Positions 7,551-32,267 of a DNA stretch of 64,000 bases are shown here, in pieces. Each line of letters opens with the position of its first letter. Position 1 is the first letter of the stretch. This stretch comes from Squalus acanthias (Eukaryota): NCBI GenBank assembly GCA_030390025.1, contig CM059432.1:6076001-6140000 (forward strand), written 5' to 3'. The notes under the pieces were generated by a model, which saw only the letters and a program-made list of their open reading frames with translations, searched no databases and was not told where the DNA came from. Made by a program: the position numbers and the translations under genes.

Positions 7551-10500
7551 CATAAAAACATAAGAAATAGGAGCAGGAGTAGGCCATTCGCCCCCTCGAG
7601 CCTGCTCCACCATTCAATAAGATCAAGGCTGATCTTCTACCTCATCTCCACTTTCCTGCACTATCGCCATATCCCTCGATTCCCTTAATATCCAAAAATC
7701 TATCAATCTCTGTCTTGAATATACTAAACAACTGAGCCTCCACAGCCCTCTGGGCTAGAGAATTCCAAAGATTCACCACCCTCTGAGTGAAGAAATTTCT
7801 CCTCATCTCAGTCCTAAATGGCCGACCCCTTATTCTGAGACTGTGACCCCCTGGTTCTAGACTCCCCAGCCAGGGGAAACATCTTCCCTGCATCTACCCT
7901 GTCAAGCCCTGTAAGAATTTTGTATGTTTCAATGAGATCACCTCTCATTCTTCTAAACTCTAGACAAGATAGGCCTAGTCTACTCAATCTCTCCTCAAAG
8001 GACAACCCCCATCCCAGGAATCAGTTTGGTGAACCTTCGTTGCACTCCCTCTATGGCAAGTATATCCTTCCTTTGGTAAGGAGACCAAAACTGTACACAA
8101 TATTCCAGGTGTGGTCTCACCAGGGCCCTATATAATTGCAGTAAGACATCTTTACTCTTATACTCAAATCCTCTTGTAATAAAGGCCATCATACCATTTG
8201 CTTTCTTAATTGCTTGCTGTACCTGCATGTTAACTTTCAGTGATTCGTGTACAAGGACACCCAAGGTCCCTCTGAACACAACATTTCCCAATCTCTCACC
8301 ATTTAAAAAGTACTCTGCTTTTCTATTTTTCCTACCAAAGTGGATAACTTCACATTTCTCCACATTATATTCCATTTGCCATGTTCTTGCCCACTCACTT
8401 AGCCTGTCTATATCCCCTTGAAGCCTCTTTGCATCCTCCTCACAACTTACATTCCCACCTAGCTTTGTATCATCAGCAAACTTGGATATATTACATTTGA
8501 TCCCCTCATCCAAATCATTGATATAGATTGTGAATAGCTGAGGCCCAAGCACTGATCCTTGTGGTACCCCACTAGTTACAGCCTGCCAACCCGAAAATGA
8601 CCCGTTTATTCCTACTCTCTGTTTTCTGTCCGTTAACCAATCCTCAATCCATGCTAGTATATTACCCCAATCCCATGAGCCCTAATTTTGTTTAATAACC
8701 ACTTGTGTGGCACCTTATTGAATGCCTTCTGAAATTCCAAATACACTACATCCATTGGTTCCCCCTTCTCTATTCTGCTAGTTACAACCTCAAAAAACTC
8801 CAACAGATTTGTCAAACATGATTTCCCTTTCATAAATCTGTGTTAACTCTGCCCAATCCTATTATTATTTTCTAAATGTCCTGTTACCATGCCCTTAATA
8901 ATAGATTCTAGCATTTTTCCTACTATTGATGTCAGGTTAACTGGTCTGCAGTTCCCCATTTTCTCTCTCCCTCCTTTCTTAAATAGTGGGGTTACATTTG
9001 CTACCTTCCAATCCACGGGAACCGTTCTAGAATCTATGGAATTTTGGAAAATGGCAACCAATGCATCCACTATCTCTATAGCCACCTCTTTCAAAACCCT
9101 AGGATGTAGGCCATCAGATCCAGGAGATTTATCAGCTTTCAGTCCCATTAATTTCTCCAGTACTATTTTTTTTACTAATACTAATTTCTTTCAGTTCTTC
9201 ATTCTCACTAGACCCTTGGTTCTCCACTATTTCCAGGAGGTTTTTTGCGTCTTCTTCCGTGAAGACAGACACAAAGGGCTGGATTTTCAATGACCCGTGG
9301 AGTCGGGTTTGGAGGCGTGTGGGGGGTTAAAGTTGCAGATTCGGGGGTCCCGACCCCATTCTGCCTCCACGCAATTTTGACAAAGTCGGTCGCGGGGTTC
9401 CCGACTCTGTCCCGCCTCCAAGAGGCGGGAGAGGCCATTAAAGCCCTTAACAAGCCCTAAATTGGCTCTGTAATGCCATTTTGAAACGTTTTAGCTAGTT
9501 TAACCCTTTTCCGACATGAAGTACGCCTGATGTGAAACACGCCAGTGAAACCTGGCGGGAGCACAAGTGGATAGCTGACTATCAGCTGCAGGTCCACTAT
9601 TACAACGGAGATGTGATGAAGGTAATAGTAGTATTGTGATGAAGGTAGTAGTAGTATTAGGTCTGAAAGTCGCCTCTGATGTTGCTGCATTGAATGTCTT
9701 CAGAGACTGCCTGGGAGGACTTGGTTGCAAAAAAAATTCTGTCTCTGTCTCTCTCTGAGATGCTGCTCATTTTGCATCCAGGTCTCTCACAGCAAAGGCC
9801 AGGCAATCTCTGAGACCAGGCAGTCTCTGACCTGCAATGATGACATCATCAGAGGTGACTTCCAGACTGAAACCACTAATTGGTTCATGGGTTCCCACAT
9901 GCTGGAACTCAATTGCCCAATTAAGTGAAAATTGCATCAATCTCCCACATCCAATTGCAGGTGGGTGGATAACACGAAATGCGGATGACACGACCCCAAC
10001 CCGCCCCAGTATCAAAATCCAGCCCAAAGTATTTGTTTAATTTCTCTGTCATTTCCTTATTGCCCATTATAATTGCTCCTGTCTCAACCTGTAAGGGACT
10101 CACGTTTACTTTCGCAAACCTTTTCCTTTTTACATACCTATAGAAGCTTTTACAGTCTGTTTTTATGTCTCTCGCTAGTTTACTCTCATTCTATTTTCCC
10201 TTTCTTTATCAATTTCTTGGTCCTCCTTTGCTGAATTCCAAAATCCTCCCAATCCTCAGGCTTACTACTCTTTTTGGCAACATTATAAGCCTCTTCCTTT
10301 AATCAAATACTATCTTTAATTTCTATTGTTAGCCACGGTTGGACCATTTTTCCCGTGGTGTTTTCATTCCTTAAGGGAATGCATATTCGTTGCGAATTAT
10401 GAATTATTTCTTTAAATGTTTGCCATTGCTTTTCTACTGTCATATATTTTAATCTAGTTTCCCAACCTACCTTAGCCTACTCGCCTCTCATACCTACGTA

Positions 10501-11053
10501 GTTTGCTTTGCTCAGGTTAAGGACCCTAGTTTCGGACTTAACTAAACCACTCTCAAACTCAACATAAAATTCTATCATATTATGATCACTGCTCCCCAGA
10601 GGCTCCTTTACTACAAGGTTATTAATTAATTAATGCTGTCTCATTGCACAGTACTAGGTCTAAAATAGCCAATTCCCTCGTAGGTTCCTTGACATACTGA
10701 TCTAGAAAACTATCCTGAAAGCATTCCATGAACTCTTCCTCTGCACTATTTATGCAAATTTGGTTTGCCCAGTCGATATAAAAGTTAAAATCCCCCATGA
10801 TGACTGTATTACTCCTGTTAAATGTATCTCTAATCTCCTGATTTATACTCTGCTCGACACTACAACCACTGTTAGGGGGCCTATAGACTACTCCCGCTAG
10901 TGTTTTCTGCCCCTTGTTGTTTCTTAGCTCCACCCAAACTAATTCTGCATTTTGTTTTTCGGAGCCAAGATCCTTTCTCTCTACTGTCTTTATTCCCTCC
11001 TTTATTATCATGGCTACCCCTCCTCCTTTTCCATTCTGCCTGTCTCTTCTAAA
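7551..11053 (-). mobile_element. CR1 LINE (EN to 3' UTR), interrupted by a Harbinger-type MITE at 9276-10025
   Basis: ORFs 10622..11155, 8843..9148, 7995..8552 (KFADD) and 7642..8005. 3' tail at 7551-7620. Confidence 0.93.
9276..10025. mobile_element. 750-bp non-autonomous Harbinger/PIF-type element (MITE)
   Basis: TIR gggctggatttt...aaaatccagccc. 3-bp TSD AAA (9273-9275 and 10026-10028). Left end resembles the transposase-bearing element at 29776. Confidence 0.8.
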
Positions 11054-11063
11054 ATATTCATTA

Positions 11064-11200
11064 GCAAGAAAGCAAAATACTGTGGATGCTGGAAATCTGA
11101 TAAGTTCTGATGAAAGGTCATCGACCTGAAATGTTAACTCAGTTTCTCTCTCCACAGATGTTGCCTGACCTGCTGAGTATTTCCAGCATTTTCTGTTTTT
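11064..11200 (+). mobile_element. 137-bp Penelope-derived non-autonomous mini-element
   Basis: 10-bp TSD atattcatta (11054-11063 and 11201-11210). Inverted tail at the left end. Contains a hammerhead core. Confidence 0.75.
11103..11139 (+). ncRNA. Minimal type I hammerhead ribozyme motif
   Basis: Stem I agtt/aact, core CTGATGA, stem II aggtc-atc-gacct, GAAA, loop-less stem III (tgtt; ancestral form probably palindromic AACGTT). Confidence 0.7.
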
Positions 11201-13329
11201 ATATTCATTAATAAAGTTCCTTCCTGCATTATTTATGTGTCATTATAGATCACTGCGGAAGGTTATAAAAGGCCACAGTTATGGGTTTTAGCAGTTAAAA
11301 TATATTCTGGAAGAACAAAATTAGATTCAAGTCCAAAAGATCCACAGGTAGCAGCAAAGAATGAAATGATCAGTTGTCCATTAATTAGGAGATGCAAACT
11401 AAGAGATCTGCTAGATTGGTTAATGTGTAATACAATATACACTACAAAATAACTGGAAAATCCTAAAAGGATTCCACTTGCTACTTTTAACAGTTCTGAA
11501 ATACTGGTGAAAAAATTGTCAAAAGACCTTAGAAACCTGGGCAGAAGGACACACTGCACAATGCTTTCACGTTTTCTTTCCAACATATTATTAAAGAAGT
11601 GTGCAGTTTAAACCACTGCCATTGTAATTTAGTTAGTATTCATTGAAGCAGAAGCATGACAATTCCCAACATGCCAATTTTAAAAGCTTAATCAGAGGAA
11701 ATCACACAGCAAGCATGTTGAAAATTCAAAGAAGTCATTATTTTCTGTTTTGAATACAGAGATCCACAGTTTCCAGTCAGCACATTTCTAAAGAAAACAA
11801 GAAAGTTTGGTCAGAATCCCTCTGGTGTCTGGGAGATCTTTTACAGCATCGCCATAGCCAGAAAAGTTTGGATGAGATGCCAGCAACATCTGATATACAA
11901 ACATCTCACGGCAATACTGAGTAACCTTTTAGCTTACTCATCATACTTCAGTAATTATTTGAACTGGCAAAAAAAATACAAGGGTTGCAAGTGAAAATTT
12001 CAGGGAGAATTACAGCAATAATGTTTCACTTGTACTAATTTCATGTCGAGATTTAAGCCTTCAATTACAGTAATTCGGGGTCTTTGTGACTTGAATTTTT
12101 GTTGTCTTTACTGCTTGAATCGGTTCTTAAAACATGGTATATCTGTAGCAAAGTCTGACAGTGATGGGTAGCTAAGCTTGTTTTTACTGTATTTGCTATT
12201 TCCTGCCTAGTGAAACCCTTGTAGATAATGGTTCCATACAAGGTAAGTGTAGCTAACTGGGAAAACAGCGTACTGACAGTTCAGTTCCTTTGTGAATATG
12301 CCAACAGGCCTCGAGCAAAATAGGACACAAGACTATTCCAGTGTGCATTCTACTGTTACACAGTTTAGCATTAAAGACCACAAACCTTCAACTCGCTCCA
12401 GGAAAAGCACGAAAATTAGCCTGGACTTTCAGGCTTGCCTATGCCAATTGTATATCCTAATTATGACAAAATACAAAAACATTAACATTTTCACACTTTC
12501 TTATGAAGTCAGGTCAAATAACACTGGAAAAACACTGATTGGAAAAAACTGCAACTTGAATTTTTTTAATTTATTTTCTAACCGCGGCATCAGCTTAACA
12601 AATATTGGAAGAAAATGTGTAGCAAATATCACTTTTCAAATAGTGGATTCAAAAACCACTTGTTGGCATCCTGAGACTTTATATCTAAGGATATATACAT
12701 ATTAATTATAACCGATACAAGTTTAATTGTAACCGATTAAAATTGAATTGATTTTCTTCTTTCAATATTAGGCAACATGAAGGCACATGGGTATCCAGCG
12801 CACAACACTCACTTATTACATGATACACAGCATTTTACTATGCCCAACTATCGCATCCCATTGTATTGCTACTCTCGCCACTGATCCAGGATAAAGCACT
12901 ACAAAAATGCAATTTTTAAAGTGTTGCCAGATGTGTGACATCTCCATTTACAGACACGAACACGAACAAAATCACTTCTTAGCTGCTATTTGGTTAACGC
13001 ATTCTGTACATAGCTTTCTAATTTAATCAAGTGTAATTACTTTGAATTAATTGCAATTTCTAATTTCTAATCTCTATTTTTGTAACCAATTCCAAGCCTT
13101 AACAATACAAAAAGTTAAACGCAGGCATTCTACTTGTCAGTTCTACTAATCATTCTGCAATTTCTTCGATTTAGGCCAAAATTCATTTCCAAAAAAATTG
13201 TTTTTACCTTATAAGCATTTATCCATTTATCCTCTTGCCACATATATGGATTCTAACTAATACTGCAGGGTCAACATAGCAAATTATTGCACGTCACATT
13301 CACTAGTGTTAATCTTTTCATATGATCTC

Positions 13330-14668
13330 CTCAATTGTCAGTCTAATCATTTGGCACTCTGCCCCTCAAAAAACTCCTAGACTCACTCGCCCTCCACACG
13401 CATCTCCAAACCTGGGCATTGGTTCGCTGGTGCTACAAGCTGACTTCACTCTCTATCAACAAGTCAACTTCATCCCATCACAGGACCTCGGACTTCAACT
13501 TTGGACTCGCTCTTATTGTCTACTCCCTATCTTCTGTTTACAACCGGGACATATCTATCCCAATCTTTGCCATGCCTATGTAACCTGATTTTCGCCAGCA
13601 TCTATTCGCATGTGCCGCACCGGACCAGAGTCTGTTAATTCTATTTCTTTCTCTTCTCTTTATCCCTCTTGTACCCTCCTCTCCTGTTTCCTCCCTTTCC
13701 TGTTATCCAGTCATACCTCCTTTCATTTCTCTCCCCTCAGGTACTTTTCGACCGCTAAATCCCGACCCCAACCCTTCACTATTCCTTTACCTTCTTACTC
13801 TCCTGCCACCATACCAGGCTTGACTTCTTGCATAAGCCCAAAGGATCCCTGTATGGCTCTCTTGGCATTCTCTGAAGGGCCAATCAAGGGACTCGTCACT
13901 GCCTCCGAAGCAGCAATTCCAACTGCCCCATTCTCTTCTCTTGCTGACCTTCCCACCCATCGCACTCGCTGGAGGCTAATCTTACCAATCTACGTCCCAT
14001 ACCATTCATCCCTCGCACCGCTGACCCTGTGGACTCTGCCATCGGATCAGCTATCACCAGCCCTCTCCGCATCGTCGCCCTCCAGAATGTCTGTTCACTT
14101 GCAAACAAGATCCTTGCCATCCATGACCTTATTGCGGATGATTGCATTGACATCATGGCTTTCACGGAAACTTGGCTCACAGATGACTCTCCTACCCATA
14201 TTCACAGCCATCCCCTCAACTATGCCATCTCACAAAGCATATCTATTCCCATCATCTCAATCACAGACAAAGCCGTCAATGTTTACTTCCTTGTATCCCT
14301 TGCCACTTTCATCCTCCTTTAAACCCCACTTCATTCTGCGTCCACCCCTGGAAAAAACTCTCCCTCAGGTCACTTATAATGGCGCTTTCAAACTCCCAAC
14401 TGTCTCGCTTTTGGCCCTTCATTCGCCACAATACTTCTCCAGCTGTCCATCTGCTCAATCACTCCCTCAGCTTTTGATGCCCTTGTCCCCATTAAAACCT
14501 TACTCTCTCACACCCTGGTTTTTCTCTCTGGTACAAACCCCATCGCATCCCTTAAATCCAAAGGGCTCGGACTTGAACACGTATGGTGCACAACTGGTTT
14601 AGCCATTCATCGCCAGATCTGGCTGGACCACATCAAGTATTTACGGGCCCTGTTCTCTTCTGCCAAGA
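13330..14668 (+). mobile_element. Degenerate L2-clade LINE fragments (endonuclease and linker)
   Basis: LQNVCSLANK...IDIMAFTETWL (ORF 14029..14322). C/T-rich L2-like composition. Confidence 0.65.
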
Positions 14669-17300
14669 TTGAGACCATCCATTCAGGTGTCTTTGCCGGC
14701 GGTGGTATACAGTCGGGAGGGAGTGGCCCTGGGAGTCTTCAACATTGAGGTCTCATGGCTTCAGGTCAAGCATGAGCAAGGAAACCTCCTGCTGATTACC
14801 ACCTACCGCCCTCCCTCAGCTGATGAATCAGTACTCCTCCATGTTGAACACCACTTAGAAGAAGCACTGAGGGTATAGCATATGCACAGAATGTACTCTG
14901 GGTGGGGGACTTCAATGTCCATCACCCAGAGTGGCTTGGTAGCACCACTACTGACCGAGCTGGCCGAGTCCTGAAGGGCATAGCTGCCAGACTGGGCCTG
15001 CGGCAGGTGGTGAGAAAACCAACACGAGGGAAAAACTTACTTGACCTCGTCCTCACCAATCTACCTGTCGTAGATGCATCTGTCCATGACAGTATTGGTA
15101 GCAGTGATCACCGCACAGTCCTTGTGGAGACTAAGTCCCACCTTCACACTGAGGACATCCTCTATCGTGTTGTGTGGCGCTACCACCGTGCTAAATGGGA
15201 TAGATTCAGAACAGATATAGCAGCTCAAAACTGGGCATCCATGAGGCGCTGTGGGCCAGCAGCAGCAGAATTGTATTCTACCATAATCTGTAACCTCATG
15301 ACCCGGCATATCCCTCACTCTACCATCACCATCAAGCCAGGGGACCAACCCTGGTTCAATGAGGAGCGTAGAAGAGCAAGTCAGGAGCAGCACCAGGAAT
15401 ACCTAAATATGAGGTGCCAACCTGCTGCAGCACAGGACTAAACAGCGGAAGCAGCATGCTATAAAAAGAGCTAAGTGATCCCACAACCAATGGATCAGAT
15501 CAAAACTCTGCAGTCCTGCCATATCCAGTCGTGAATGGTAGTGGACAATTAAACAACTTATAGGAGGAAGAGGCTCCATGAATATCCCCTCCTCAATGAT
15601 GGCGGAGCCCAGCACCCAAGTGCAAAAGACAAGGCTAAAGCATTTGCAACCATCTTCAGCCAGAAGTGCCAAGTGGATGATCCATCTCGGCCTCCTCCTG
15701 AGGTCCCCACCATCACAGAAGCCAGTCTTCAGCCAATTCAATTCACTCCACATGATATCAAGAAACGGCTGAGCACACTGGATACAGCAAAGGCTATGGG
15801 CCCCGACAACATCCCGGCTGTCATGCTGAAGACTTGTGCTCCAGAGCTAGCTGCGCCTCTAGCCAAGCTGTTTCAAGCTACAACACTGGCATCTACCCAA
15901 CAATGTGGAAAACTGCCCAGGTATGTCCTGTCCACAAAAAGCAGGACAAATCCAATCCAGACAATTACCGCCCCATCAATCTACTCTCAATCATCAGGAA
16001 AATGCTGGAAGGTGTCGTCGAAAGTGCTATCAAGCAGCACTTACTCACCAATAACCTACTCACCGATGCTCAGTTCGGGTTCCGCCAGGACCACTCGGCT
16101 CCAGACCTCATTACAGCCTTGGTCTAAACATGGACAAAGGAGCTGAATTCCAGAGGTGAGGTGAGAGTGACTGCCCTCGATATCAAGGCAGCATTTGACC
16201 GAGTGTAGCATCAAGGAGCCCTAATAAAATTGAAGTCAACAAGAATCAGGGGGAAAACTCTCCACTGACTGGAGTCATACCTAGCACAAAGGAAGATGGC
16301 TGTGGTTGTTGGAGGTCAATCATCTCAGCCCCAGGATATCGCTGCAGGGGTTCCTCAGGGCAGTGTCCTAGGCCCAACCATCTTCAACTGCTTCATCAAT
16401 GACCTTCCCTCCATCATAAGGTGAGAAGTTGGGAGGTTTGCTGATGATTGCACAGTGTTGAGTTCCATTCGTAACTCCTCAGATAATGAAGCAGTCCATG
16501 CTCGCATGCAGCAAGACCTGGATGACATTCAGGCTTGGGCTGATAAATGACAAGTAACATTCGCACCACACAAGTGCCAGGCAATGACTATCTCCAACAA
16601 GCGAGAGTCTAAACAACCGCCCCATGACATTCAACGGCATTACCATCGCCGAATCTCCCCCCATCAACATCCTGGGGGTCACCATTGACCAGAAACTTAA
16701 CTGGACCAGCCACATAAATACTGTGGCTACAAGAGCAGGTCAGAGACTGGGTATTCTGCAGTGAGTGTCTCACCTCCTGACTCCCTAAAGCCTTTCCACC
16801 ATCTACAAGACACAAGTCAGGAGTGTGATAGAATACTCTCCACTTGCCTGGATGAGTGCAGTTCCAACAACACTCAAGAATCCCGAACCCATTCAGGACA
16901 AAGCAGCCCGCTTTATTAGCTCCTCATCCACCACCTTAAACATTCACTCCCTGCACCACCGGTGCACCGTGGCTGCAGTGTATACCAGCTGCAATATGCA
17001 CTGCAGCAACTCACCAAGGTTTTTTCGACAGCACCTCCCAAACCCGCGACCTCTACCACCTAGGAGAAGGGCAGCAGGCGCATGGGAACACCACCACCTC
17101 CAAGTTCCCTTCCAAGTCACACACAATCCTGACTTGGAAATATATTGCCGTTCCTTCATCGTTGCTGGGTCAAAATTCTGGAACTCCCTCCCTAACAGCA
17201 CTGTGGGAGTACCTTCACTTCACGGACTTCAGTGGTTCAAGAAGGCGGCTCACCACCACCTTCTCAAGGGCAATTAGGGATGGGCAATAAATGCTGGCCT
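14669..17300 (+). mobile_element. Second CR1-group non-LTR retrotransposon family: ORF2 (EN + RT) and 3' end, many stops and frameshifts
   Basis: Motifs [51 protein letters not shown]. Tail ccaccaccttctcaagggcaattagggatgggcaataaatgc. Confidence 0.88.
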
Positions 17301-18139
17301 TATACTAAACAAATAGAACAGCATATCAGAAGATGAGGATTCACAACCTAAAAAAATATCCAGCTGTCTTGTTTCGTACATCCTAAAATCCAGAGAAATT
17401 GGGTAGCACCATAGACAAGAATATTTCCGTCCCAATTTTGGAGTCAAACAAGAGTCGACTCTTTCTCAGAGCTATCAACTGTTCCAAGAGGATTTCCCAA
17501 TAAACAAGTCTAGAGTGTAAAACTCCCCTTAGGTTCAGCACAGTTGCTATTAATGTACCAAGACATGACAAAAAGAGAAAGCATGACAATCAGAAAAGCA
17601 CTGAAAGGGTGCAATACAGGGTGGGAGGGGATTGTTCTGATGTTAAATTTTAGCCACCATATTAGAACAATGTAGGAAACGCAGTGCCTTGTATTGGATC
17701 CATGCATTCCATATCCATCTCGAGAGAGAGAGAGCGCTCAAGCAGTCAGCATTTTCTACCCTCAATCTAATTAACACAACATAAATATATAATTTTGATT
17801 TTTCGAATTGGATTGTCGACAAGCATGGATGCGCACAGCTTCACGCCAGGATGGTAAATTTGCAACATGTTGAGAGCACAAGTGAAAGCATCTGCTTTCT
17901 CAAAAGCATTAAAAAAAAAGACTGACAAGTTTATAATGTGTCCAGGAGGCACAACAATTTATCCAAGTGCTTGTTAAACCCAGTTTGACACGGCACTAGA
18001 ATTATACTCCAGAGTATCAAGCCCAAAGTATGAGACGGCCTCCCGTAGAGGGGGGGTCTCGCACTGCTGCATTCCAGAGTCAGATGTAGACACAGCTGAT
18101 CATCAACCTGAAAATGGCAGTGTAAGTAAAGAACCACCA

Positions 18140-18280
18140 GAGAATTTACAGCACAGAAACAGGCCATTCGGCCCCACAGGCCCATGCCGGTGTTTATGCT
18201 CCACACGAGCCTCCTCCCACCCCTCTTCATCTAACCGTATCAGCATATCCTTCTAGTCTTTTCTCCCTCATGTACTTATT
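18140..18280 (-). mobile_element. CR1 3' UTR fragment (third family)
   Basis: Same 3' UTR as the copies at 50077, 59262 and 62885 (gaatggcctgtttctgtgctgta). Confidence 0.7.
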
Positions 18281-20030: not shown

Positions 20031-20153
20031 TAGCGCTAGCCTCATTTCTAAAAGTAGATCTGATATTTCATTGTAAGCTATGTAAATTTCCCTCACAAAA
20101 TGGTATTATATCTGGTTTCCGTATCGTGTTCCATTATTAAAACCACTCCTTCA

Positions 20154-20411
<258 letters not shown>

Positions 20412-20680: not shown

Positions 20681-20828
20681 TTCCATCGGTCTTCTGCTGC
20701 AACTCTGGTGGGACACTGGCAGAATACCTTGGGAGATGGTGGATATGACCATTTCCATTGTTACCCTGGGGCTTCAGCCAGTGTCCCACTGGAGTTATGG
20801 GAAGGAGATCGTTGGAATTTCAGCCCCA
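20681..20828. repeat. Imperfect ~145-bp palindrome (decayed MITE)
   Basis: ctctggtgggacactggc / gccagtgtcccactggag arms. Right end tttcagcccc resembles the Harbinger-type TIR. Confidence 0.7.
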
Positions 20829-22438: not shown

Positions 22439-22710
22439 CATAAGAACTTAGGAAATAGGAGCAGGAGTAGGCCATTTGGCCCTTTGAGCCTGCTCCACCA
22501 TTCAATAACATCATGGCTGATCTTCCACCTCAACTCCACTTCCCCACCCTATTCCCATATCCCTTAGTTCCCTTAGTATCAAAAAATCTATCGATCTAAG
22601 CCTTGAATATACTTAACGACTGAGCATCACAGCCCTCTGGGGTAGAGAATTCCAAAGACTCACACAAGTGAAGAAATTTCTCCTCATTCCAGTCCTAAAT
22701 GGCTGACTCC
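22439..22710 (-). mobile_element. CR1 3' fragment
   Basis: Same tail as the copies at 7551 and 28074. Confidence 0.85.
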
Positions 22711-23583
22711 AACGGGTGCTTCTGATTCACTGAATGCAACCTTTTATTTTTTGTGCTTATTAAGGTGAAAGATGTTACTGTAATTCTGTAATTTCCCCCA
22801 CCCCCAACTCTCCCATGCCCTCTCGGAGATCATCTCTTCGACTAGAGCCACCTCCTGCTCCCTTTACCCCTCCCCTCATCTCTTGACCACTTAACATCCC
22901 CTCTTTGTTCCTCATGCTAGTTGATATTAATTATTCCCCAGTTCCCTTAGGCACTGTTTCTCTCCTGTTTAAAGCCACTGTCATCAACCCCTCTTCAATA
23001 ACTGATCCTGGACACATCTGACCTCTCCAACTGCAGCCACATTTCTAACCTCTCGGTCCTCTCCAAGGTCCTTGAATGTGTTGTCACCTCCCAGTTTAGT
23101 GCCCATCTCCAAGAACTTCCTGTTCAAATCCCTCCGATCAGGCTTCCCCTATCTCACAACACCAAGACGACTCTGGCAAAAGTCACAAAAGACATCCTCT
23201 GTGATTGTGTCCATGATGTGTTCTCTCTCACCGTTGCAGAATTTAATACTATGCCATCTTCCTTTATCACTTCTCCTCAGTTCTCTAGCTCCATAGAACT
23301 GACCCTACATGGATCCAATCCTATCTGAATGTAACAAATACATATCCAGTAATGGCTTCTTTTCCCACCACTGCACCATCACCCTCCGAGTCCCCCAATG
23401 ATCTATCCTTCAGCTTCCTCTTACTCACCTGCACGCTGCCCCTCAGTGATATCATCTGTCGGCAGTGTTAGCTTCCATGTGTGTACTGATGATCATGATG
23501 CGGAGATGCCGGTGTTGGACTGGGGTGGACAAAATTGAGAGGTCGCACAACACCAGGTTATAGTCTAACAGTTTTATTTTAAA

Positions 23584-23621
23584 TCACAAGCTTTCGGAGT
23601 TACAACTCCTTCGTCGGGTGA
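23584..23621 (-). ncRNA. Mirror-copy hammerhead motif, sense to the STK3 pre-mRNA
   Basis: Exact reverse complement of 24819-24856. Confidence 0.7.
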
Positions 23622-24181
23622 AGTGAGGAGATACAGAATCGTCAAAGCATATATAGATAGAGAACAATGCATGTGTAACTTACAATTGCAGACAACTAAA
23701 TTCAATCATCCTGACTGTTTATCTGCCGAGGTGTGATAAAGTTAATCAGGTCAGCCAGGAAGGTACCACATCAAAGACATAGCAAGATACAACTGAGACA
23801 ATGAGGTGGAATCGCATGGGGTCTAACGTGTCAAAAGCTGCCGTCTGTATGTAAAACGATTAACTTTAAAATTTTTACTTTTTTACTGGGAATCACATCT
23901 GTGAACAAGCCAACGACGACTCGAGTCCGGATCACGTCATGTATCGTGACATAAACCCAAGATCCCGATTGAGACCGTCTTCATGAGTGCGGAACTTGGC
24001 TATCAGTTTCTGCTCGATGATTTTGCGTTGTCGTGTTTTCCTAAGGCCGCCTTGGAGAACGCTTACCCGCAGATCCGAGGCTGAATGTCCTTGACTGCTG
24101 AAGTGTTCCCCGACTGGGAGGTAACAATCCTGCCTGGCGATTGTTGCGCGGTGCTCGTTCATACGTTGTCTCAGTGTCTGC

Positions 24182-24508
24182 ATGGTCTCGGCCAACGTTG
24201 TCTACCTCATACGTTGCAGGAAAGAATGCACCGCGGCATGGTACATCGGCGAGACCATGCAGACACTGAGACAACGTATGAACGAGCACCGCGCAACAAT
24301 CGCCAGGCAGGATTGTTACCTCCCAGTCGGGGAACACTTCAGCAGTCAAGGACATTCAGCCTCGGATCTGCGGGTAAGCGTTCTCCAAGGCGGCCTTAGG
24401 AAAACACGACAACGCAAAATCATCGAGCAGAAACTGATAGCCAAGTTCCGCACTCATGAAGACGGTCTCAATCGGGATCTTGGGTTTATGTCACGATACA
24501 TGACGTGA
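24182..24508 (+). pseudogene. 5'-truncated Penelope GIY-YIG endonuclease domain (mirrored on the minus strand at 23932-24190)
   Basis: NVVYLIRC...WYIGET...RMNEHR...HF...E..LI...GLN motifs, open to the stop codon. Confidence 0.88.
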
Positions 24509-24818
24509 TCCGGACTCGAGTCGTCGTTGGCTTGTTCACAGATGTGATTCCCAGTAAAAAAGTAAAAATTTTAAAGTTAATCGTTTTACATACAGACGGC
24601 AGCTTTTGACACGTTAGACCCCATGCGACTCCACCTCATTGTCTCAGTTGTATCTTGCTACGTCTTTGATGTGGTACCTTCCTGGCTGACCTGATTAACT
24701 TTATCACACCTCGGCAGATAAACAGTCAGGATGATTGAATTTAGTTGTCTGCAATTGTAAGTTACACATGCATTGTTCTCTATCTATATATGCTTTGACG
24801 ATTCTGTATCTCCTCACT

Positions 24819-24856
24819 TCACCCGACGAAGGAGTTGTAACTCCGAAAGCTTGTGA
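24819..24856 (+). ncRNA. Minimal hammerhead ribozyme motif in the Penelope pLTR (core variant CCGACGA)
   Basis: Stem I tcac/gtga, CCGACGA, stem II ggagt-tgta-actcc, GAAA, palindromic AAGCTT stem III. Confidence 0.7.
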
Positions 24857-25613
24857 TTTAAAATAAAACTGTTGGACTATAACCTGGTGTTGTGCGACCT
24901 CTCAATTTTATACTGATGATACCCAGCTCTACTTCTCTTGTCCCCACAATTACCTACATGCTGTCAGATTGCCTGCTCAATGTCAAGTCTCCTCCAACTG
25001 ACCATCGGAAAACTGAATCCATAGTTTCTCCCCTCTGCTATTTTCTTTACACAGCAGGTCAGTCGGCATTCGTAAAAAGAAAAGACAAGGTTATGATATT
25101 TTGGGAGTGTATGCTTCATCAGGTCTACAGTTTTAATGAAGGATACACGCATGCAATGTCATTATCTGTAAAGAGAAATGTCAAGTTCTGACTAACTTGA
25201 TCTGTATTTCCAGCATTTTCTATTTTTATTTCAGATATTTTTTTTAACTTTTTATAAATTGGAGATGGTTCAGAGAAGACTAAAAAGCTGACTGGCTTTT
25301 CAGCTCTAAGATTGTGGTTTCAATCCAGCCAAAACTATAGAAATGAAAGTTTACTGTCGGTAAAAGACATTTGGATACTCTCAGCCCAGCAGGTAGGGGG
25401 ACACTGCATAAAACTGTCCCTAATTCTATTCTTATTGGTAATGTTGCTGAGAAAGGCCACTGGGTAATGTCACAGTGGCACAGTAAAACTTCCCTTTGAG
25501 GCTGGGAATGAATCACATTGTTAGTATTGAGTAAAGGAAGTTTTACTCTGCATCTAACCATGCTGTACCTGAACGACATCAACTATTTAAGTTTAATCTT
25601 ATTGGTTACTTAC

Positions 25614-25778
25614 TGTCAGCTGACCTGCAACACCAAAATCCGCAAGCTTTGCATGACCTTCTGTATTCAGTAGGATATTTCCAGCTTTGATGTCTCGGTG
25701 GATTTTTCTCATGAAGTGTAGATATTCCAGCCCTTTCAAGGTGGATTTAAGAATTGTTGCTATTTCATCTTCTATTAG
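25614..25778 (-). CDS. STK3: STK3 coding exon (exon 5 equivalent): [55 protein letters not shown]
   Basis: 165 bp, translated by hand. Acceptor ttatag, donor gtaagt. Contains the HRDIKAGN catalytic loop and [14 protein letters not shown] is STK3-type. Confidence 0.93.
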
Positions 25779-26424
25779 CTATAATCAGAACATAGCACAT
25801 GCGAAATGTTAGATCACAGCATTAAAATTCAATGCTATTTTAACATCTAAATACATACAGTAAATATTTAAATCCCCTACTACTCTAACTTTAGATACTT
25901 CCATTTTAATGAAACAAACATTGCCCATTTCTGGCACCAGTATCTTGTACATTTTTCCATATTACCACGTAAGGAACTTTAAAATTTATTTCTCATGGAC
26001 ACACTAACATCCAGTACCATAATGCAGAGATACATGCAGATTTGAGTGCCACTCCACTTGGTTGCTGACCAGAGGTTTATCAACTGAAGAAGTTCCAAGC
26101 AGAAGCTGTGGAGACTTCTAATGGGGTAGTGGTGGGAGGGAGGGGAAACAACAAAAAAAATCAGTTACTGGAGTCATTCTTTGGGTGTTCCCACCACCTC
26201 CTAGAAGGGGGCATTGGTGGTGGCCTGACAGCAGGCTGTGTGTGCTCCATCAGATCCAGGACGACAAAGAAAGACATTTAAAAAAAACTCTCATGAAATA
26301 AAAGGCCGAAAAATGCATCTTTCATTTTTACAAGATTTCAAACATAATTCTGAAATAGTTCTTCCAATGACTTGCAGCAACATTTTACATAGTCATTAAA
26401 CCCTTATGACCAAAGAGCAAACCT

Positions 26425-28074
26425 AAGATCGAGTTCTGGAAAATGAAGTGGGGCAAGTGGAGCATGTTTCAGTGAGAGAGCATTTTGGGAACAGTGTTCA
26501 TATTATCATCAGGTTTAGAATAGTTATGGAAAAGGACAAGGTACAATCAAGCGTAAAAATACTTAACTGGAGGAGGGCTAACTTCAGCGAGTTGAAAAGG
26601 GATCTGGCGCAGGTGGATTCAAATCAAAAATTGGTAGGCAAAATTGAACAATGGGAGGCCTTCAAAGAGGAGATGGTTCAGGTACAGAGTAGACGCATTC
26701 CTATGAGGGGGAAAAGGAAGAGCATCCAAAGCTAGAGCTCCCTGAATGACTAAAGATATAGAGGTTAAAATGAGACAGAAAAAGGAGGCCTATGACAATT
26801 TTAAGGTTCATAATACAGTAGAGAACCAAGCTGAATATAGAAAGTACAGAGGAGATCTAAAAAAGGGAATGAGGGGCAAAGAGTGAGTATGAAAATAGAT
26901 TAGCAGCCAACATAAAAGGGAACCCAAAAGTCTTTTACAAACACATAAATAGTAAAAGGGTAGTCAAAGGAAGGGTAGGGCCGATTAGGGACCAAAAACA
27001 AGATCCTCTTGTGCAGGCTGAGGTACTAAATGAATACTTTGCATCTGTCTTCAGTAGAGAAGGGGATGCTCCCAATCTATCAGTAAAAGGAGGAAGGCAG
27101 CAGCGATATTGGTTACGATAAAAATAAAGAGGATGTACTTAAAAGGTTGGCAGTCCTCAAAGTAGAAAAGTCACCCATTCCAGATGGGATGCATCCTAGG
27201 TTACTGAGGGAAGGGTGGAAATTGGGGAGGCTCTGGCCACAATCTTATAATCCTCCTTGGACATGGGGGTAGTGCCAGAGGACCGGAGGATTGCAAATGT
27301 TACACCCCTGTTCAAAAAAGGGGAGAGGGATGAATCCAGCAACTACAGGCCAGTCAGCCCAACTTCAGTGGTGGAGAAACTTTGAGACAATAATCCAGAC
27401 AAAATTAATTGGCATTTGGAAAAGTATGGGTTAATAAATGAAAGTCAGCACGAATTTGTTAAAGGCAGATTTGTTAACTTGATCCAGTTCTTTGATGAAG
27501 TAACGGAGAGGGGTTGCAGTTCTGTGTATGGACTCTCAAAAGGGATTTGAGAAAATACCACAAAATAGACTTGGAAGCAAACTTAAAGCCCTGGGATTAA
27601 AGCGACATGGATAGAAAAATTGGCTAAGGGATAGAAAGCATAGAGTAGTGGTGAATGGTTCTTTTTCAGACTGGAGGGAAGTATGCAGTGATGTTCCCCA
27701 GGGGTCAGTATTAGGACCACTGCTCTTTTTGATATACATTAATGACCTGGACTTGGGTATAAAGGGCATAATTTCAACGTTTGCAGCAGATAGAAAACTC
27801 GGAAATGTAGTAAACAATGAGGAGGATAGTAACAGACTTCAGGAGGACAGACTGGTAAAATGGGCAGACACGTGGCAGATGAAATTTAACGCAGAGAAAT
27901 GTGAAGTGAATCGTTTGGTAGGAAGAATGAGGAGAGGCAATATAAACTAAATGGTACAACTTTAAAGAGGATGCAGGAAGAGAGAGACCTGGGGGTGTAC
28001 GTACACAAATCTTTGAAGGTGGCAGTGCAAGTTGATAAGGCTGTTAAAAAACAAATGGGACCCTTGGCTTTATT
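26425..28074 (+). mobile_element. Degenerate CR1 ORF2 fragment, truncated by the adjoining opposite-strand CR1
   Basis: ORFs 26448..26735 and 27648..27950 ([19 protein letters not shown]). Confidence 0.88.
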
Positions 28075-29775
28075 AAGAACATAAGAACTTGGAGCTGGAG
28101 TAGGCCACTTGGCCCTTCGAGCCTGCTCCGCCATTCAACAAGATCATGGCTGATCTTCTATCTCAACTCCACCTTCCCACACTATCCCCATATCCCTTAA
28201 TTCCCTTCGTCACCAAAAAATTATCAACTTCTGTCTTGAATATACTCTCAACGACTGAGCATCCACAGCTCTCTAGGGTAGAGAATTCCAAAGAGTCACA
28301 ACCCTTTGAGTGAAGACATTTCTCCTCATCTCAGTCCTAAATGGCCTACCCCTTATTCTGTGACTGTGACCCCGTGTTCTAGATTCCCCAGCCAGGGGAA
28401 ACATTTTCCCAGCATTAACCCTGTCAAGCCCCTTAAGAATTTTATATGTTTCAATTAGATCACCTCTCAATCTTCTAAGAAGGAATATAGGCCTAGTCTA
28501 CTCAATCTCTCGTCATAGGGCAATCCCCTCATCCTAGGAACCAGTCTAGTGAACCTTCGTTGCACTCCCTCTAAGGCAAGTATGTCTTTCCTGAGGTAAA
28601 GAGACCAGAACTTTACACAGTACTCCAGGTGTGACCTCACCAATGCCCTATATAATTGTAGGAAGACTTCTTTACTCTTATACTCTAATCCCTTTGTAAC
28701 AAAAGCTAACATACCATTTGCTTTCCTAATTGCTTGCTGTACCTGCATGTTAGCTTTCTGTGATTCATGTACAAGGACACCCAGGTCACTCTGAATGCAA
28801 ACATTTCCCAGTCTCTCACCATTCAAAAAAATATTCTGCTTTTTTGTTTTTCTTACCAAAGTGGATAACTTCACACTTCCCCACATTGTATTCCATTTGC
28901 CATGTTCTTGCCCACTCAGTCAACCTGTCTATATCTCTCTGCAGCCTCTTTGCGTCCTCCTCACAGATTACTTTCCCACTTAACTTTATATCAGCAGCAA
29001 ACTTGGATATGTTACACTCAGTCCCTTCATCCGAGTCATTAATATAGATTGTAAATAGCTGAGGCCCAAGCACTGATCCTTGCGGTACCCTGCTAGTTAC
29101 AGTCTGCTAACCTGAAAAAGTCCCATTTATTCCTACTCTCTGTTTTCTGTCCATTAACCAATCCTCAATCCATGCTAATATATTACCCCCAATCCCATGA
29201 GTTCTAATTTTGTGTCATAACCTCTTGTGTGGCACCTTATCGAATGCTTTTTGAAAATCCAAATACACTATATCTACTGGTTCCCCCCCTTATCCATCCT
29301 ACTAGTTACATCTTCAAAAAACTGACAGATTTGTCAAACATGATTTCCCTTTCATAAAACCATGTTTACTCTGCCTAATCATATTATGATTTTCTAAGTG
29401 CCCTGTTACCACATCCCTAATAATAGATTCTAGCATTTTGCCTACTACTGATGTCAGGCTAACTGGCCAATTGTTCCCCGTTTTTTCTCTTCCTCCTTTC
29501 TTAAATAGCGGGGATATGTTTGCTACCTTCCAATCCTTGGGAACTGTTCTAGAATCTAGGGAATTCTGGAAGATTAATACCAGTGCATCCACTATCTCTG
29601 CAGCTACCTCTTTTAAATCCCTAGGATTCAGGTCCAGAGCATTTGTCGTCACTTAGTCCCATTAATTTCTCCAGAACTATGTCTTTACTTATACTGATTT
29701 CATTAAGTTCCTCAACTAAGTTCCCCATTATTTCCGGAATGTTTTTTGTGTCTTCTACCGTGAAGACAGACACAA
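28074..29775 (-). mobile_element. CR1 3' portion, ending at a Harbinger insertion
   Basis: ORFs 28273..29652 with RT motifs. 3' tail at 28074-28160. Confidence 0.9.
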
Positions 29776-32267
29776 GGGGCTTGATTTTATCAGCCCTGAG
29801 GAGGCGGGTTTGGAGGCGGGTCAGGTGGTAAAATGGCTAAAAATGGCGGCGGGTTCCGATCCCGCCGTCAACCCGCCTCCGTGCAACTTTTCCAAAGGTG
29901 GGCTTGCAGACTCTCGTTCAGTCCCCCCACCAAGCGGCAGGATAGGCCCTTAAGGCAGTTAATTGGTTGTTAACTGCCTGTGTAATTCCTATTTTGCCTG
30001 CCGTTTTAAATTTTAGCACATTTTCAGGGTGTTCCACGTCGTTCCCAAACCACGCCAGCTAATTGTGTCGGGTTCATAAGTGGCTGGCTTCTTGACAGCT
30101 GCAGCTCCAGCATAAAAACGGAGCTCTCAACAAGGATCAGTTGCAGGTGGCAGAACTTTGTTTTTTCAGGTCCTGGAAAACTTTTTGCAGGTCTACTGAT
30201 CTTGGAAGTGGTGAAGCTGAGATCCATCTCCACTGTCACCTCCTGGGAAAACCCTCTCCCCACAATGACTGAGCGCTTTTTCAACAGAGACATCTACCAG
30301 CAGTATGTGAACCATTTATTTCCTTTCATCCTGGTCCTCAGATTCGGAGGGCGAGCAGCCGCGGCAGCAACAGAACCAGGCATAACAGCAGCACCAACAG
30401 CAGGAGCGGCAACCTCCTGCTAAGCCACCTGATGGTGCACAGGGCAGAAGGCTGCACCTCGCCGCAGGAGATACCCGCAACACAGGGTTTACAGGCCGAG
30501 GATGATCTTCCTCAACATGACTGAGCAGCAGTGCCAAAGGAGGCTGAGACTTTCACGAGAGGTAGTCGGTGACATCTGAGCAATGCTGCACCAACACCTG
30601 GAGCCCAGAGAGCGGGTGGACAACCCTTTACCAGTGGCTGTCAAAGTCACCACCGCCCTCAATTTCTTTCACTTCAGGGTCCTTCAGCAGACATCAGCGG
30701 CATCTCCCAGTTGGCCGCACACACTTGCATCATGCAGGTAACCGATGCCCTCTTTGCCAAGGCGCAAAATTATATACACTTCTCCACGGATCAAGCAAGT
30801 GTAACCGCGCTTGCGGTTGGCTTTGCAAATATGGCAGGCTTGCCAAGGGTGCAGGACGTCGTAGACTGCACACGTGGCCCTTAGGGCACCCCATCACAAC
30901 CCAGCTGTTTCTGTCAACTGCAAGGGCTTCCACTCCCTCAACGTGCAGCTGGTGTGTAACCACAGGAAGGACATTTTGCATGTTTGCGCAAAGTACCCTG
31001 GCAGTTGTCATGACTCGTTCATCCTGCGCCAGTCTAGTGTGCCTCCGCTCTTCAATCCGCCAAACCAACTTTCCAGGTGGCTACTCGGAGACAAGGGCTA
31101 TCCCCTGAAGACGTGGCTGATGACGCCATTGAGGAGGCCATCTAACGAAGCTGAGGAGCGCTGCAATGCCAGCCACATTTCCACCAGATCCATTTTCAAG
31201 CAAACCATCAGATGCCTTGATAGATCAGGTGGAGCCCTACAGTATTCAGCAGCCAGGGTCTCCAGAATCATCGTGGTCTGCTGTGCACTGCACAACATCA
31301 TAGCTTGCAGCTGCCTGAGGAACAAGTGGCTCAGCGCATAGCCTCCTCAGATGAGGAGGAGGAGGAGGAGGGCCTTGCAGAGGCGGATGCGCCAGTTCCA
31401 GCAGCACGCGAGCACATTGCTGCCCGTGATGCAAGGGATTCACTAATCTTTGCCAGATTCGCTTAAGCAGACAAATCAAACAAATGTGGCTGGCACCTTC
31501 TTAGCACACCATACATAATGTACAAGAACCTGTGGGTTCCTATCACTCTGACCACCATCATTCCGAGATCACACAGGCCAGAACTTCAACTGTTTGCCAT
31601 CACTTCTGTTTAATCCATTCACAAAAGGATGACAATGTCAAATATTAAAGAAAACAAAAGACAACAGAACAGAACACCCAAGTGACTACCCTTGTGACTA
31701 ATTGTGCTTTATCTTCCTCTTACGCGTGCTTCTACGTGGTGCCTCCCCTGTGGCTTCAGCAGATGTGGAGGCACCTTGCTCACTTTCATGCTGCTCCTGC
31801 TTCGACACCTTTGGCGGGCGTCCTCTGTGTTTGCGAGCCTGTGAGGGCTTGGCAACAGTCTGCTCCTCCTGCGTCTGTGCAGGGACTGAGACGCCCATCT
31901 CAGTTGGGTGAGGACTCTGGTGGGGCTCTGACCAAGAGCTACTCAGTGGCATGAGAATGTGAGCACTTGGAGAGCAGCCCCCACTTCCTTGTTGCCTGCC
32001 ACCAACATCCCTCTCATGGGTCAGCCCCACTTCAGTGCTAGCAAGTGGCTGGACAGCATCTTGCTATACATCAGGGGGGCCATGAGGACCCATATCTGCA
32101 CTGGCAGTCCTACTCAAAAGGACTTCCATGAAGCTCTGGTTTCTCTGCACAATAGCTCCTCCAGAGATGTCAGTCTATTCTGAACATTCACCATGTTTTC
32201 CTGACTGGCGACTTATTTCCTCCATGGCCGTAGTCAGCCTTTCCACGGAGGTCGCCATCCTTTCCAT
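29776..32267 (+). mobile_element. Decayed autonomous Harbinger/PIF transposon, right end lost
   Basis: Left terminus ggggcttgatttt homologous to the 9276 MITE. Plus-strand transposase. A convergent minus-strand ORF remnant (31698-32267) sits where the Myb/SANT gene is expected. Confidence 0.85.
30300..31468 (+). pseudogene. Harbinger (HARBI1-like, DDE_Tnp_4-type) transposase pseudogene
   Basis: [50 protein letters not shown] and CCALHN motifs, with stops, frameshifts and deletions. Confidence 0.88.

What the first reader, a model, noticed from the sequence alone, without database searches (positions are those of the whole stretch)
9261..29830. Two different Harbinger elements inserted at the same nucleotide of two separate CR1 LINEs: a possible TE-targeting transposon
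Seen: the CR1 at 7551-11053 is interrupted after gaagacagacacaaa by a 750-bp MITE (TSD AAA). The CR1 at 28074-29775 is interrupted after gaagacagacacaa(g) by a transposase-bearing Harbinger, at the same site (within 1 nt, in the YF.SVFT.ED codons) and in the same orientation. The two inserts have homologous but clearly diverged termini. The reconstructed target agacacAAAgtattt is quasi-palindromic. Established: zebrafish Harbinger3_DR prefers a similar palindromic site (AAACACCWGGTCTTT). Internal controls: CR1 copies with altered sites (agaaccAAAgtatgt at ~40939 and ~1090; agatgcAAAgtattc at ~27035) are empty. Inference: this Harbinger lineage uses the most abundant LINE in the genome as a recurrent safe-harbour target.
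Basis: partly seen in the sequence, partly recalled or inferred. Interest (0 to 1): 0.8.

Follow-up and report, generated by a model that had tools for sequence, protein, structure and literature searches.

The report
Harbinger landing hotspot inside a LINE
Two different cut-and-paste (Harbinger) transposons sit at the same three bases of two copies of an older LINE repeat, and about a thousand more do so genome-wide, most likely because that spot is the LINE's best match to the 15-base landing motif these transposons prefer, a known habit of this transposon group.

Summary
A 750-bp MITE (9276-10025, TSD AAA) and a truncated transposase-bearing Harbinger (29777-32265) abut the same LINE position, ...GAAGACAGACAC|AAA. 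For the second element only the left junction survives.

Genome-wide this is a real, recurrent hotspot and not one duplicated composite:
- 889 + 196 exact junctions lie on one side of the site and 979 on the other, against 2,024 exact empty sites.
- Orientation is 11:9 among 20 complete sampled inserts, and many MITE subfamilies are involved.
- Host and insert distances are not congruent (Mantel r = -0.11).

The hotspot is most likely motif-driven, not LINE-directed:
- Insertion sites outside the LINE share a semi-palindromic target, RRASWY-NNN-RWSTYY.
- A matrix built only from those sites ranks the LINE site first of 2,729 positions in the LINE.
- Only about 3-5% of ends lie at this site. 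Other repeats carry other hotspots.

The half-site equals that of zebrafish Harbinger3_DR (AAACAC CWG GTCTTT). The central triplet here is variable and A/T-rich.

An adaptive "safe harbour" role is untested. Site filling exceeds a simple additive model 3-8-fold.

Earlier notes of this scan reached the same reading at other hotspots of this genome.

Verdict: new member of a known kind, moderate interest.

The parts
7551..9275 (-). LINE copy A, 3' part up to the insertion site (canonical site subfamily)
   Evidence: LINE reading frame on the minus strand (for copy B equivalent)
9273..9275 (.). [quoted passage not shown]
9276..10025 (+). insert A: 750-bp non-coding Harbinger-type MITE, perfect 12-bp TIRs GGGCTGGATTTT
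   Evidence: termini and an internal piece match a 5.1-kb autonomous relative
10026..10028 (.). right copy of the target-site duplication AAA
10026..11053 (-). LINE copy A, continuation beyond the insert
28074..29776 (-). LINE copy B, 3' part ending at the same site (last triplet AAG)
29777..32265 (+). insert B: left 2,588 bp of a 5.1-kb two-gene Harbinger (TIR GGGCTTGATTTT; family consensus GGGCTCGATTTTACCAGCCC), truncated on the right
   Evidence: 89.8% identity to L062 element positions 1-2588
30865..31341 (+). transposase fragment (DDE_Tnp_4), frame-broken gene
   Evidence: E 1.2e-24; neighbouring frames
32266..33443 (+). unrelated LINE reverse-transcriptase fragment that abuts the truncated Harbinger
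   Evidence: RVT_1, E 4e-12
40935..40955 (+). empty altered site gaagacagaaccAAAgtatgt in a younger LINE subfamily copy (39234-41453)
1085..1105 (-). empty altered site, same younger LINE subfamily (copy 79-2820)
27032..27052 (-). empty altered site gaagacagatgcAAAgtattc in a third LINE copy
35311..37788 (-). LINE copy C, ends about 12 bp short of the site (no site present), itself split by another MITE at 35676-36423

Best explanation
Both inserts are PIF/Harbinger elements that landed independently at one 3-bp position of a LINE subfamily, likely because that position is a near-perfect copy of the family's semi-palindromic landing motif (RRASWY-NNN-RWSTYY), which the transposase complex is predicted to read as two half-sites.

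Shown here:
- the junctions, TIRs and 3-bp duplications;
- the transposase domain;
- hundreds of further junctions at the same nucleotide, in both orientations and from many subfamilies;
- the same motif at insertion sites outside the LINE;
- a matrix built from those outside sites picks this position as the best of 2,729 in the LINE.

Inferred:
- a symmetric transposase complex (perhaps with the Myb-like partner) recognises the two half-sites and makes cuts staggered by 3 bp around a largely free central triplet;
- the LINE matters only because it spread thousands of copies of a top-0.002% site through the genome. It thereby became a landing pad that took up roughly 3-5% of all insertions and is filled in roughly 16-35% of its exact-site copies.
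For: Family. DDE_Tnp_4 in the window copy, and both DDE halves in the full-length relative L062. The 3-bp duplication is identical on both sides in 23 of 27 copies that have both flanks.

Recurrence, exact whole-genome counts:
- AGACACAAA+GGGCTGGATTTT: 889.
- AGACACAAA+GGGCTHGATTTT: 196.
- Other side, AAATACTTT+GGGCTGGATTTT: 979.
- Empty GACAGACACAAAGTATTT: 2,024.
- Reversed controls: 0.

Independence:
- Of 30 junction loci taken in genome order, 20 hold a complete MITE with the LINE resuming after an AAA duplication.
- Their orientation is 11 '+' to 9 '-'.
- The 100 listed junctions carry at least 8 recurrent internal sequence types plus about 20 others, by my eye tally.
- Host against insert distances: Mantel r = -0.11, with 1,400 of 2,000 permutations at or above it.
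- In the window itself the inserts are 65% identical and the hosts 85%.

Motif. In 72 unique half-sites outside this LINE site:
- -9 is R in 60.
- -8 is G in 41 and A in 21.
- -7 is A in 63.
- -6 is G in 35 and C in 26.
- -5 is A in 43 and T in 20.
- -4 is C in 43 and T in 21.
Of 23 non-LINE sites, 20 have at most 2 mismatches to the 12 specified positions, against 3,686 of 398,886 background positions.

Prediction.
- The matrix scores the LINE site at 12.3 bits.
- That is rank 1 of 2,729 positions in the emptied LINE copy A; the next best scores 9.0 bits.
- The site is still rank 1 with a matrix from the B-type family alone (25 half-sites) or the A-type family alone (47).
- The second-ranked position is itself an observed insertion site (L004).
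- Only 8 of 398,640 positions in a 400-kb grid sample score as high.

Literature (passages read). Extended target preference, 15 bp in vertebrates, is a hallmark of the superfamily (PMC2836001). The Harbinger3_DR target is AAACACCWGGTCTTT (PMC3016246).
Against: - The additive matrix predicts filled:empty odds of 0.065 at this site, using my rough figure of 49,000 elements. Observed odds are 0.19 (389:2,024 with a 12-nt flank, a lower bound) to 0.54 (1,085:2,024 with a 9-nt flank). That is 3-8 times higher, so an extra preference for this context is not excluded.
- The matrix rests on 72 half-sites from two families.
- The degenerate consensus was derived partly from the same sites it was tested on. 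The cross-family test eases this.
- One probable LINE-site flank (L039) was left in the 'non-LINE' set.
- The altered-site contrast is age-confounded. It is 40:8,705 against 889:2,024, a 96-fold difference where the matrix predicts 234-fold. The altered subfamily is young (median pairwise distance 2.8%, 4 copies, 6 pairs). That is similar to the youngest MITE family (3.4%) and younger than most Harbinger subfamilies.
- Protein-level recognition was not tested.
- For insert B the right junction is missing.
Confidence: 0.8

Rival explanations
1. LINE-directed targeting. The Harbinger lineage recognises something specific to this LINE beyond the 15-bp motif, such as extended sequence context, DNA structure, chromatin or a LINE product, and uses it as an evolved safe harbour.
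For: - The site is filled 3-8 times more often than the additive motif model predicts.
- One nucleotide position holds about 3-5% of all sampled ends.
- In a 400-kb grid sample, 1 of about 5 elements lay at this site.
- The LINE carries a second half-site-like word (GAAGAC) directly upstream.
Against: - About 95% of ends lie elsewhere.
- Other repeats carry equally recurrent hotspots that fit the same motif.
- The motif from non-LINE sites alone ranks this site first in the LINE.
- Other positions of the same LINE copies are rarely hit, except the second-best motif match (L004).
- The excess is within the error of a 72-site matrix and of my estimate of element number.
Confidence: 0.1
2. Survivorship. 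Insertions occur by motif everywhere, but those inside dead LINE copies are neutral and are kept, while insertions at equally good sites in functional DNA are purged. This inflates the LINE share.
For: It would account for a modest excess of filled LINE sites over the model. The LINE copies are old and broken.
Against: Most of a 3.7-Gb genome is likely neutral, so purging can hardly give a several-fold effect. This was not tested with any call.
Confidence: 0.06
3. One ancestral composite. A LINE copy that already carried a Harbinger was multiplied by retrotransposition, segmental duplication or gene conversion.
For: One sampled pair (L089/L090, about 200 kb apart) is a segmental duplicate, with insert distance 0.001 and host distance 0.000.
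Against: - Orientation is 11:9.
- There are at least 8 recurrent insert types.
- Mantel r = -0.11.
- Closely related inserts (3-6% apart) sit in hosts 6-9% or more apart, often in opposite orientation.
- In the window the inserts are 65% identical and the hosts 85%.
Confidence: 0.02

Closest known systems
Harbinger3_DR / Harbinger3N_DR of zebrafish (reconstructed two-gene Harbinger; known to me through passages of PMC3016246 and PMC2836001; the primary paper PMC2290759 is not held)
   Same: - DDE transposase plus a Myb-like partner gene.
- 3-bp duplication.
- A 15-bp palindromic target.
- Its half-sites, AAACAC and AAAGAC, fit the RRASWY half-site found here.
   Different: - The central triplet is CWG in zebrafish. 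Here it is variable and A/T-rich, with CWG in 0 of 27 copies.
- Here there are tens of thousands of mostly non-coding copies.
- Here a large share lies in repeat-borne copies of the motif.
PIF / Ping / Pong / mPing (Tourist MITEs) of plants
   Same: Same superfamily. The insertion preference extends beyond the 3-bp duplication (9 bp in plants; PMC2836001, passages read). MITE amplification is driven by two-gene autonomous partners.
   Different: The plant duplication is TWA (TTA/TAA). Here TTA or TAA occurs in 1 of 27 copies. The target motif is different and shorter.
NuwaII group of the PHIS superfamily (target C|TNA|G; PMC4482050, passages read)
   Same: A conserved pyrimidine before and purine after the 3-bp duplication. 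TIRs begin with GG. The elements carry two genes including a Myb/SANT gene.
   Different: Here the triplet is TNA in only 2 of 27 copies. The conserved flank extends 6 bp on each side. Transposase phylogeny was not done.
Truly site-specific elements that live in other repeats or multicopy genes
   Same: Many copies sit at one nucleotide of another repeated sequence.
   Different: Those families have nearly all copies at the one site. Here about 95% of copies are elsewhere.

Membership tests
PIF/Harbinger (PHIS) superfamily | DDE transposase of the DDE_Tnp_4 type | tested here: met
   window 30865-31341, E 1.2e-24, 87 bits (cutoff 24.8). L062 carries both halves, E 3e-16 and 1e-16.
PIF/Harbinger (PHIS) superfamily | second gene with a Myb/SANT-like DNA-binding domain | tested here: inconclusive
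   L062 3787-4197(-) matches Myb_DNA-bind_5 at E 2.2e-4, 21.5 bits, just under the 21.7-bit cutoff. That part of the element is missing from the window copy.
PIF/Harbinger (PHIS) superfamily | terminal inverted repeats and a 3-bp target-site duplication | tested here: met
   12-bp perfect TIRs. The triplet is identical on both sides in 23 of 27 copies.
PIF/Harbinger (PHIS) superfamily | target preference extending beyond the duplication | tested here: met
PIF/Harbinger group in the narrow sense (PMC4482050) | TWA duplication | tested here: not met
   TTA or TAA in 1 of 27 copies. The 100 listed ends show mostly TAT, ATA, TTT/AAA and ATT/AAT (eye tally).
NuwaI / Harbinger3_DR-like | CWG duplication | tested here: not met
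   0 of 27.
NuwaI / Harbinger3_DR-like | flanking half-sites AAASAC | tested here: met
   consensus RRASWY, compared with the consensus quoted in PMC3016246. Assigning Harbinger3_DR to NuwaI is my inference.
Site-specific, repeat-dwelling transposons | nearly all copies at one site of one host sequence | tested here: not met
   about 5 of 100 and 3-5 of 100 sampled ends are at the LINE site.
CR1 clade (for the host LINE) | phylogenetic placement of the RT, and the CR1-type 3' end | not tested
The C-terminal FFTQRVV..WN.LP motif (neighbouring ORF) resembles chicken CR1 only from my recall.

The most novel reading that the evidence does not exclude
The half-site AAASAC is a deeply conserved recognition element of one vertebrate Harbinger lineage, shared from zebrafish to this cartilaginous-fish-like genome, while the central triplet is free to vary. 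A LINE subfamily that happens to encode a near-perfect site has become a genome-wide landing pad. It is filled more often than the motif alone predicts, so that LINE spread and MITE spread are coupled. If true, these elements would be natural, predictable 15-bp-directed integrases, with tens of thousands of natural events available to learn the rules from.
Probability: 0.3. Interest if true: 0.55.

Novelty: new member of a known kind. Interest (0 to 1): 0.4.

Why it matters
It shows, with whole-genome counts, how a short DNA preference of a cut-and-paste transposon turns an unrelated retrotransposon into a recurrent landing pad. About a thousand exact junctions lie at one nucleotide, and a sixth to a third of the exact-site LINE copies are filled.

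This matters for repeat annotation, because LINE+MITE chimeras will be built as false 'families'. It matters for dating nested insertions. It also bears on how Harbinger target choice is encoded: the half-sites are conserved with zebrafish Harbinger3_DR while the central triplet differs.

It also documents tens of thousands of Harbinger-type elements in a genome that earlier notes of this scan judged shark- or ray-like. That lineage was reported in 2015 and 2022 to lack them, on the basis of the elephant shark (PMC4482050, PMC9179366, passages read). Later shark genome papers list them without analysing target sites (PMC12498223, PMC8455134, passages read).

Tried and rejected
1. One duplicated composite: rejected.

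2. An apparent composite turned out to be a chance match.
- 38 of the 100 listed GGGCTGGATTTTCAA sites share the flank TGTAGTGATCTTATCTTA (eye tally).
- The 15-mer lies inside a long Gag-Pol-like reading frame of a young repeat of about 4.4 kb.
- It has no similarity to the MITE.
- The count of 5,552 is therefore inflated, and I did not use it as a denominator.

3. The altered-site LINE subfamily as a clean natural control: downgraded, because that subfamily is younger.

4. Predicting occupancy from a degenerate consensus proved too coarse. It predicts 0.5% for one-mismatch sites. I replaced it with a position matrix, which still under-predicts 3-8-fold.

5. Right end of insert B, or the rest of LINE copy B, in the window: not found.

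6. The primary Harbinger3_DR paper is not held.

7. Searches for published work on Harbinger target sites in sharks found none among the papers listed. This covers only the held library.

8. No transposase phylogeny, structure prediction or complex prediction was run.
Full report
WHAT IS IN THE WINDOW

The window lies in a 3.7-Gb assembly (G000:C8:6076001-6140000).

LINE copy A (7551-11053, reading frame on the minus strand) is split by a 750-bp insert at 9276-10025.
- The insert has perfect 12-bp inverted ends GGGCTGGATTTT.
- It is flanked by an AAA duplication...gaagacagacacAAA[insert]AAAgtatttgtttaat.

LINE copy B (28074-29776) stops at the same word...gaagacagacacAAG, and is followed by GGGCTTGATTTTATCAGCCC.
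- Aligning 29 relatives shows that the family's TIR starts at 29777 (GGGCTCGATTTTACCAGCCC in most copies).
- The breakpoint is therefore the same nucleotide as in copy A.

Insert B carries a DDE_Tnp_4 transposase fragment at 30865-31341 (E 1.2e-24).
- It equals the first 2,588 of 5,112 bp of a full-length relative (L062, 89.8% identity).
- That relative also carries a weak Myb/SANT-like match on the other strand.
- Insert B ends at 32265 against an unrelated RT fragment.
- Neither its right TIR nor the remainder of LINE copy B is in the window, so only its left junction can be read.

Inserts A and B face the same way.
- They are distant relatives: 64.9% identity over about 340 bp at the left end, plus matches at the right terminus and one internal piece.
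- Their host LINE copies are 84.6% identical.
- This alone rules out a single duplicated composite for the pair.

THE SAME JUNCTION GENOME-WIDE

Exact whole-genome pattern counts:

| Pattern | Count |
|---|---|
| AGACACAAA+GGGCTGGATTTT | 889 |
| AGACACAAA+GGGCTHGATTTT (mostly the C form of insert B's family) | 196 |
| Other side of the site, AAATACTTT+GGGCTGGATTTT | 979 |
| Stricter 12-nt LINE flank, GACAGACACAAA+TIR+10N+B (a lower bound) | 389 |
| Empty site GACAGACACAAAGTATTT | 2,024 |

- Reversed-pattern controls gave 0 in each case.
- The filled:empty odds are therefore between 0.19 and 0.54. About 16-35% of exact-site copies are filled.

For scale:
- GGGCTGGATTTT ends, filtered by one base on each side, number 48,975 (control 94).
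- GGGCTCGATTTT ends number 6,584 (control 33).
- These are tens of thousands of elements.
- In the two genome-ordered lists of 100 ends, about 5 and 3-5 lie at this LINE site, by my eye tallies.
- In a 400-kb grid sample, one of about five elements did.

INDEPENDENCE

Of 30 junction loci taken in genome order (L065-L094):
- 20 hold a complete MITE, after which the LINE resumes with the AAA duplication.
- The other 10 have no LINE-flanked right end within the 1.5 kb held.

Further points:
- Orientation among the 20 is 11 to 9.
- The 100 listed junctions carry at least eight recurrent internal sequence types, both 'left' and 'right' ends, plus about twenty others (eye tally).
- Across 23 complete LINE-borne inserts, host and insert distances are not correlated. 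Mantel r is -0.11, with 1,400 of 2,000 permutations reaching it.
- Closely related inserts (3-6% apart) lie in hosts 6-9% or more apart, often in opposite orientation.
- One pair (L089/L090) is a segmental duplicate.
- Some host distances above 0.3 reflect non-homologous flank sequence in the alignment.

WHY THIS SITE

Flanks of 30 copies of the A-type MITE (both sides where present) and of 29 of the 30 B-type loci (left side; no TIR was located in the thirtieth) gave 86 half-sites.
- After removing those at this LINE site and collapsing identical flanks, 72 remained.
- Reading towards the TIR they show:

| Position | Bases (of 72) |
|---|---|
| -9 | R in 60 |
| -8 | G 41, A 21 |
| -7 | A 63 |
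| -6 | G 35, C 26 |
| -5 | A 43, T 20 |
| -4 | C 43, T 21 |

- An A/T-rich triplet follows. The target is RRASWY-NNN-RWSTYY.
- The two families give the same pattern separately.
- One probable LINE-site flank (L039) remained in this set.
- One non-LINE flank (L037) was excluded by my filter.

Mismatch test:
- Of 23 non-LINE A-type sites with both flanks, 20 have at most two mismatches to the 12 specified positions.
- The same holds for only 3,686 of 398,886 positions (0.92%) in a 400-kb grid sample.
- This test is partly circular, because the consensus came from these sites.

Position matrix built from the 72 half-sites:
- The LINE site scores 12.3 bits.
- Only 8 of 398,640 grid positions score as high.
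- In LINE copy A with the MITE removed, the site ranks first of 2,729 positions; the next best scores 9.0 bits.
- It still ranks first with a matrix from the B-type family alone (25 half-sites) or the A-type family alone (47).
- The second-ranked LINE position is itself an observed insertion site (L004).

This is an age-matched and context-matched control. The motif learned elsewhere predicts where in the LINE the elements land.

The same lists show other recurrent hotspots in other repeats, all fitting the motif.

LIMITS

- The additive matrix, with my rough figure of 49,000 elements, predicts filled:empty odds of 0.065 at this site. That is 3-8 times below the observed odds.
- The gap may come from a crude matrix, an underestimate of element number, extended context, or a real extra preference or retention in LINEs. 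I cannot tell which.
- The altered LINE site is filled 40 times against 8,705 empty copies. This is 96-fold below the canonical site, where the matrix predicts 234-fold.
- That subfamily is young. V1 and V2 are 95.3% identical. Median pairwise distance is 2.8% for 4 copies (6 pairs), against 3.4% for the A-type MITEs sampled. Much of the contrast could therefore be timing.
- How the proteins read the site was not tested.

COMPARISON WITH WHAT IS KNOWN

- Extended target preference is a recognised hallmark of PIF/Harbinger elements: 9 bp in plants and 15 bp in vertebrates (PMC2836001, passages read).
- Zebrafish Harbinger3_DR is 'highly specialized' for AAACACCWGGTCTTT (PMC3016246, passages read). 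Its half-sites AAACAC and AAAGAC fit RRASWY exactly.
- The difference is the central triplet. CWG occurs in 0 of 27 copies here and TWA in 1 of 27; the commonest triplets are TAT, ATA, AAA/TTT and ATT/AAT.
- None of the six triplet-defined groups of PMC4482050 (passages read) fits cleanly. I did no transposase phylogeny and saw no repeat library, so I file this as a new member of a known kind.
- Truly site-specific, repeat-dwelling elements differ in having nearly all their copies at one site.
- Papers from 2015 and 2022 reported no Harbingers in the elephant shark (PMC4482050, PMC9179366, passages read).
- Later shark genome papers list Harbinger/Tourist elements without target analysis (PMC12498223, PMC8455134, passages read).
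- My three searches found no paper on this hotspot.

EARLIER NOTES OF THIS SCAN

Two follow-ups in the same genome reached the same reading at other hotspots:
- e1-7940590, at a CR1 tail repeat;
- e1-9058401, at a SINE site.
The first led me to PMC2836001. They are not independent evidence.

VERDICT

- Recurrent independent insertion is strongly supported.
- 'TE-targeting safe harbour' is not supported as such.
- The best explanation is a sequence motif whose best copy happens to be carried by an abundant LINE subfamily.

Noticed in passing
window 23531-24909: A perfect inverted repeat: two 660-nt arms, 100% complementary, 59 nt apart. Each arm encodes a GIY-YIG nuclease-like stretch (Pfam GIY-YIG, E 7.7e-5), which suggests a Penelope-like element fragment in head-to-head duplicate. 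Perfect identity suggests either a very recent event or an assembly artefact.
   Followed up: partly
window 35676-36423: Another small inverted-repeat element splits LINE copy C. Its ends are GGCCGAGAAATTCCGTTC... and ...GAACGGAATTTCTGGGCC. It belongs to a different family from the Harbingers studied here. Read from the sequence only.
   Followed up: no
window 25600-25780 (minus strand): A protein-kinase exon (...[29 protein letters not shown]) followed by a GT donor. The window therefore lies within or beside a kinase gene. It resembles STE20/MST-type kinases only from my recall. Its GGGCTGGAATAT word is one of the chance near-matches to the TIR.
   Followed up: no
G000:C1 loci L135-L137 (e.g. 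L135 1362-5321): The 15-mer GGGCTGGATTTTCAA also occurs inside a 1,319-codon Gag-Pol-like reading frame of a young repeat of about 4.4 kb. Copies are 98.6-99% identical and some lie in tandem at 4,247-bp spacing. This chance match makes up 38 of the first 100 hits for that word.
   Followed up: partly
G000:C1 listings: Other recurrent Harbinger landing sites in other repeats:
- ...CTTTGCAGACTC|TTT (about 9 of 100 ends)
- ...ATAAATAGAGGC|ATA|GAGTACAAAAGC (a LINE coding region, about 6)
- ...GACCAAAGCC|ATT|GTCTTTGG (about 6)
- ...ATAGAGTC|ATA|GAGTCAT (about 11)
All fit the RRASWY half-site. These are eye tallies.
   Followed up: partly
window 28060-28077: LINE copy B's 3' end abuts an older plus-strand LINE (about 26440-28073) that is cut at ...ggctttattaa, so this is a LINE-in-LINE nesting. 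That older family carries the second LINE hotspot listed above.
   Followed up: no
L103 (G000:C3:90000001-90010000), element about 3135-3866: A LINE-site insertion found by chance in the grid sample has unequal flanking triplets (TGT on one side, AAA on the other). This suggests mutation after insertion or an imprecise event.
   Followed up: no
L089 and L090 (G000:C1 near 258.10 and 258.31 Mb): An identical LINE+MITE pair about 200 kb apart: a recent segmental duplication that includes the composite.
   Followed up: partly
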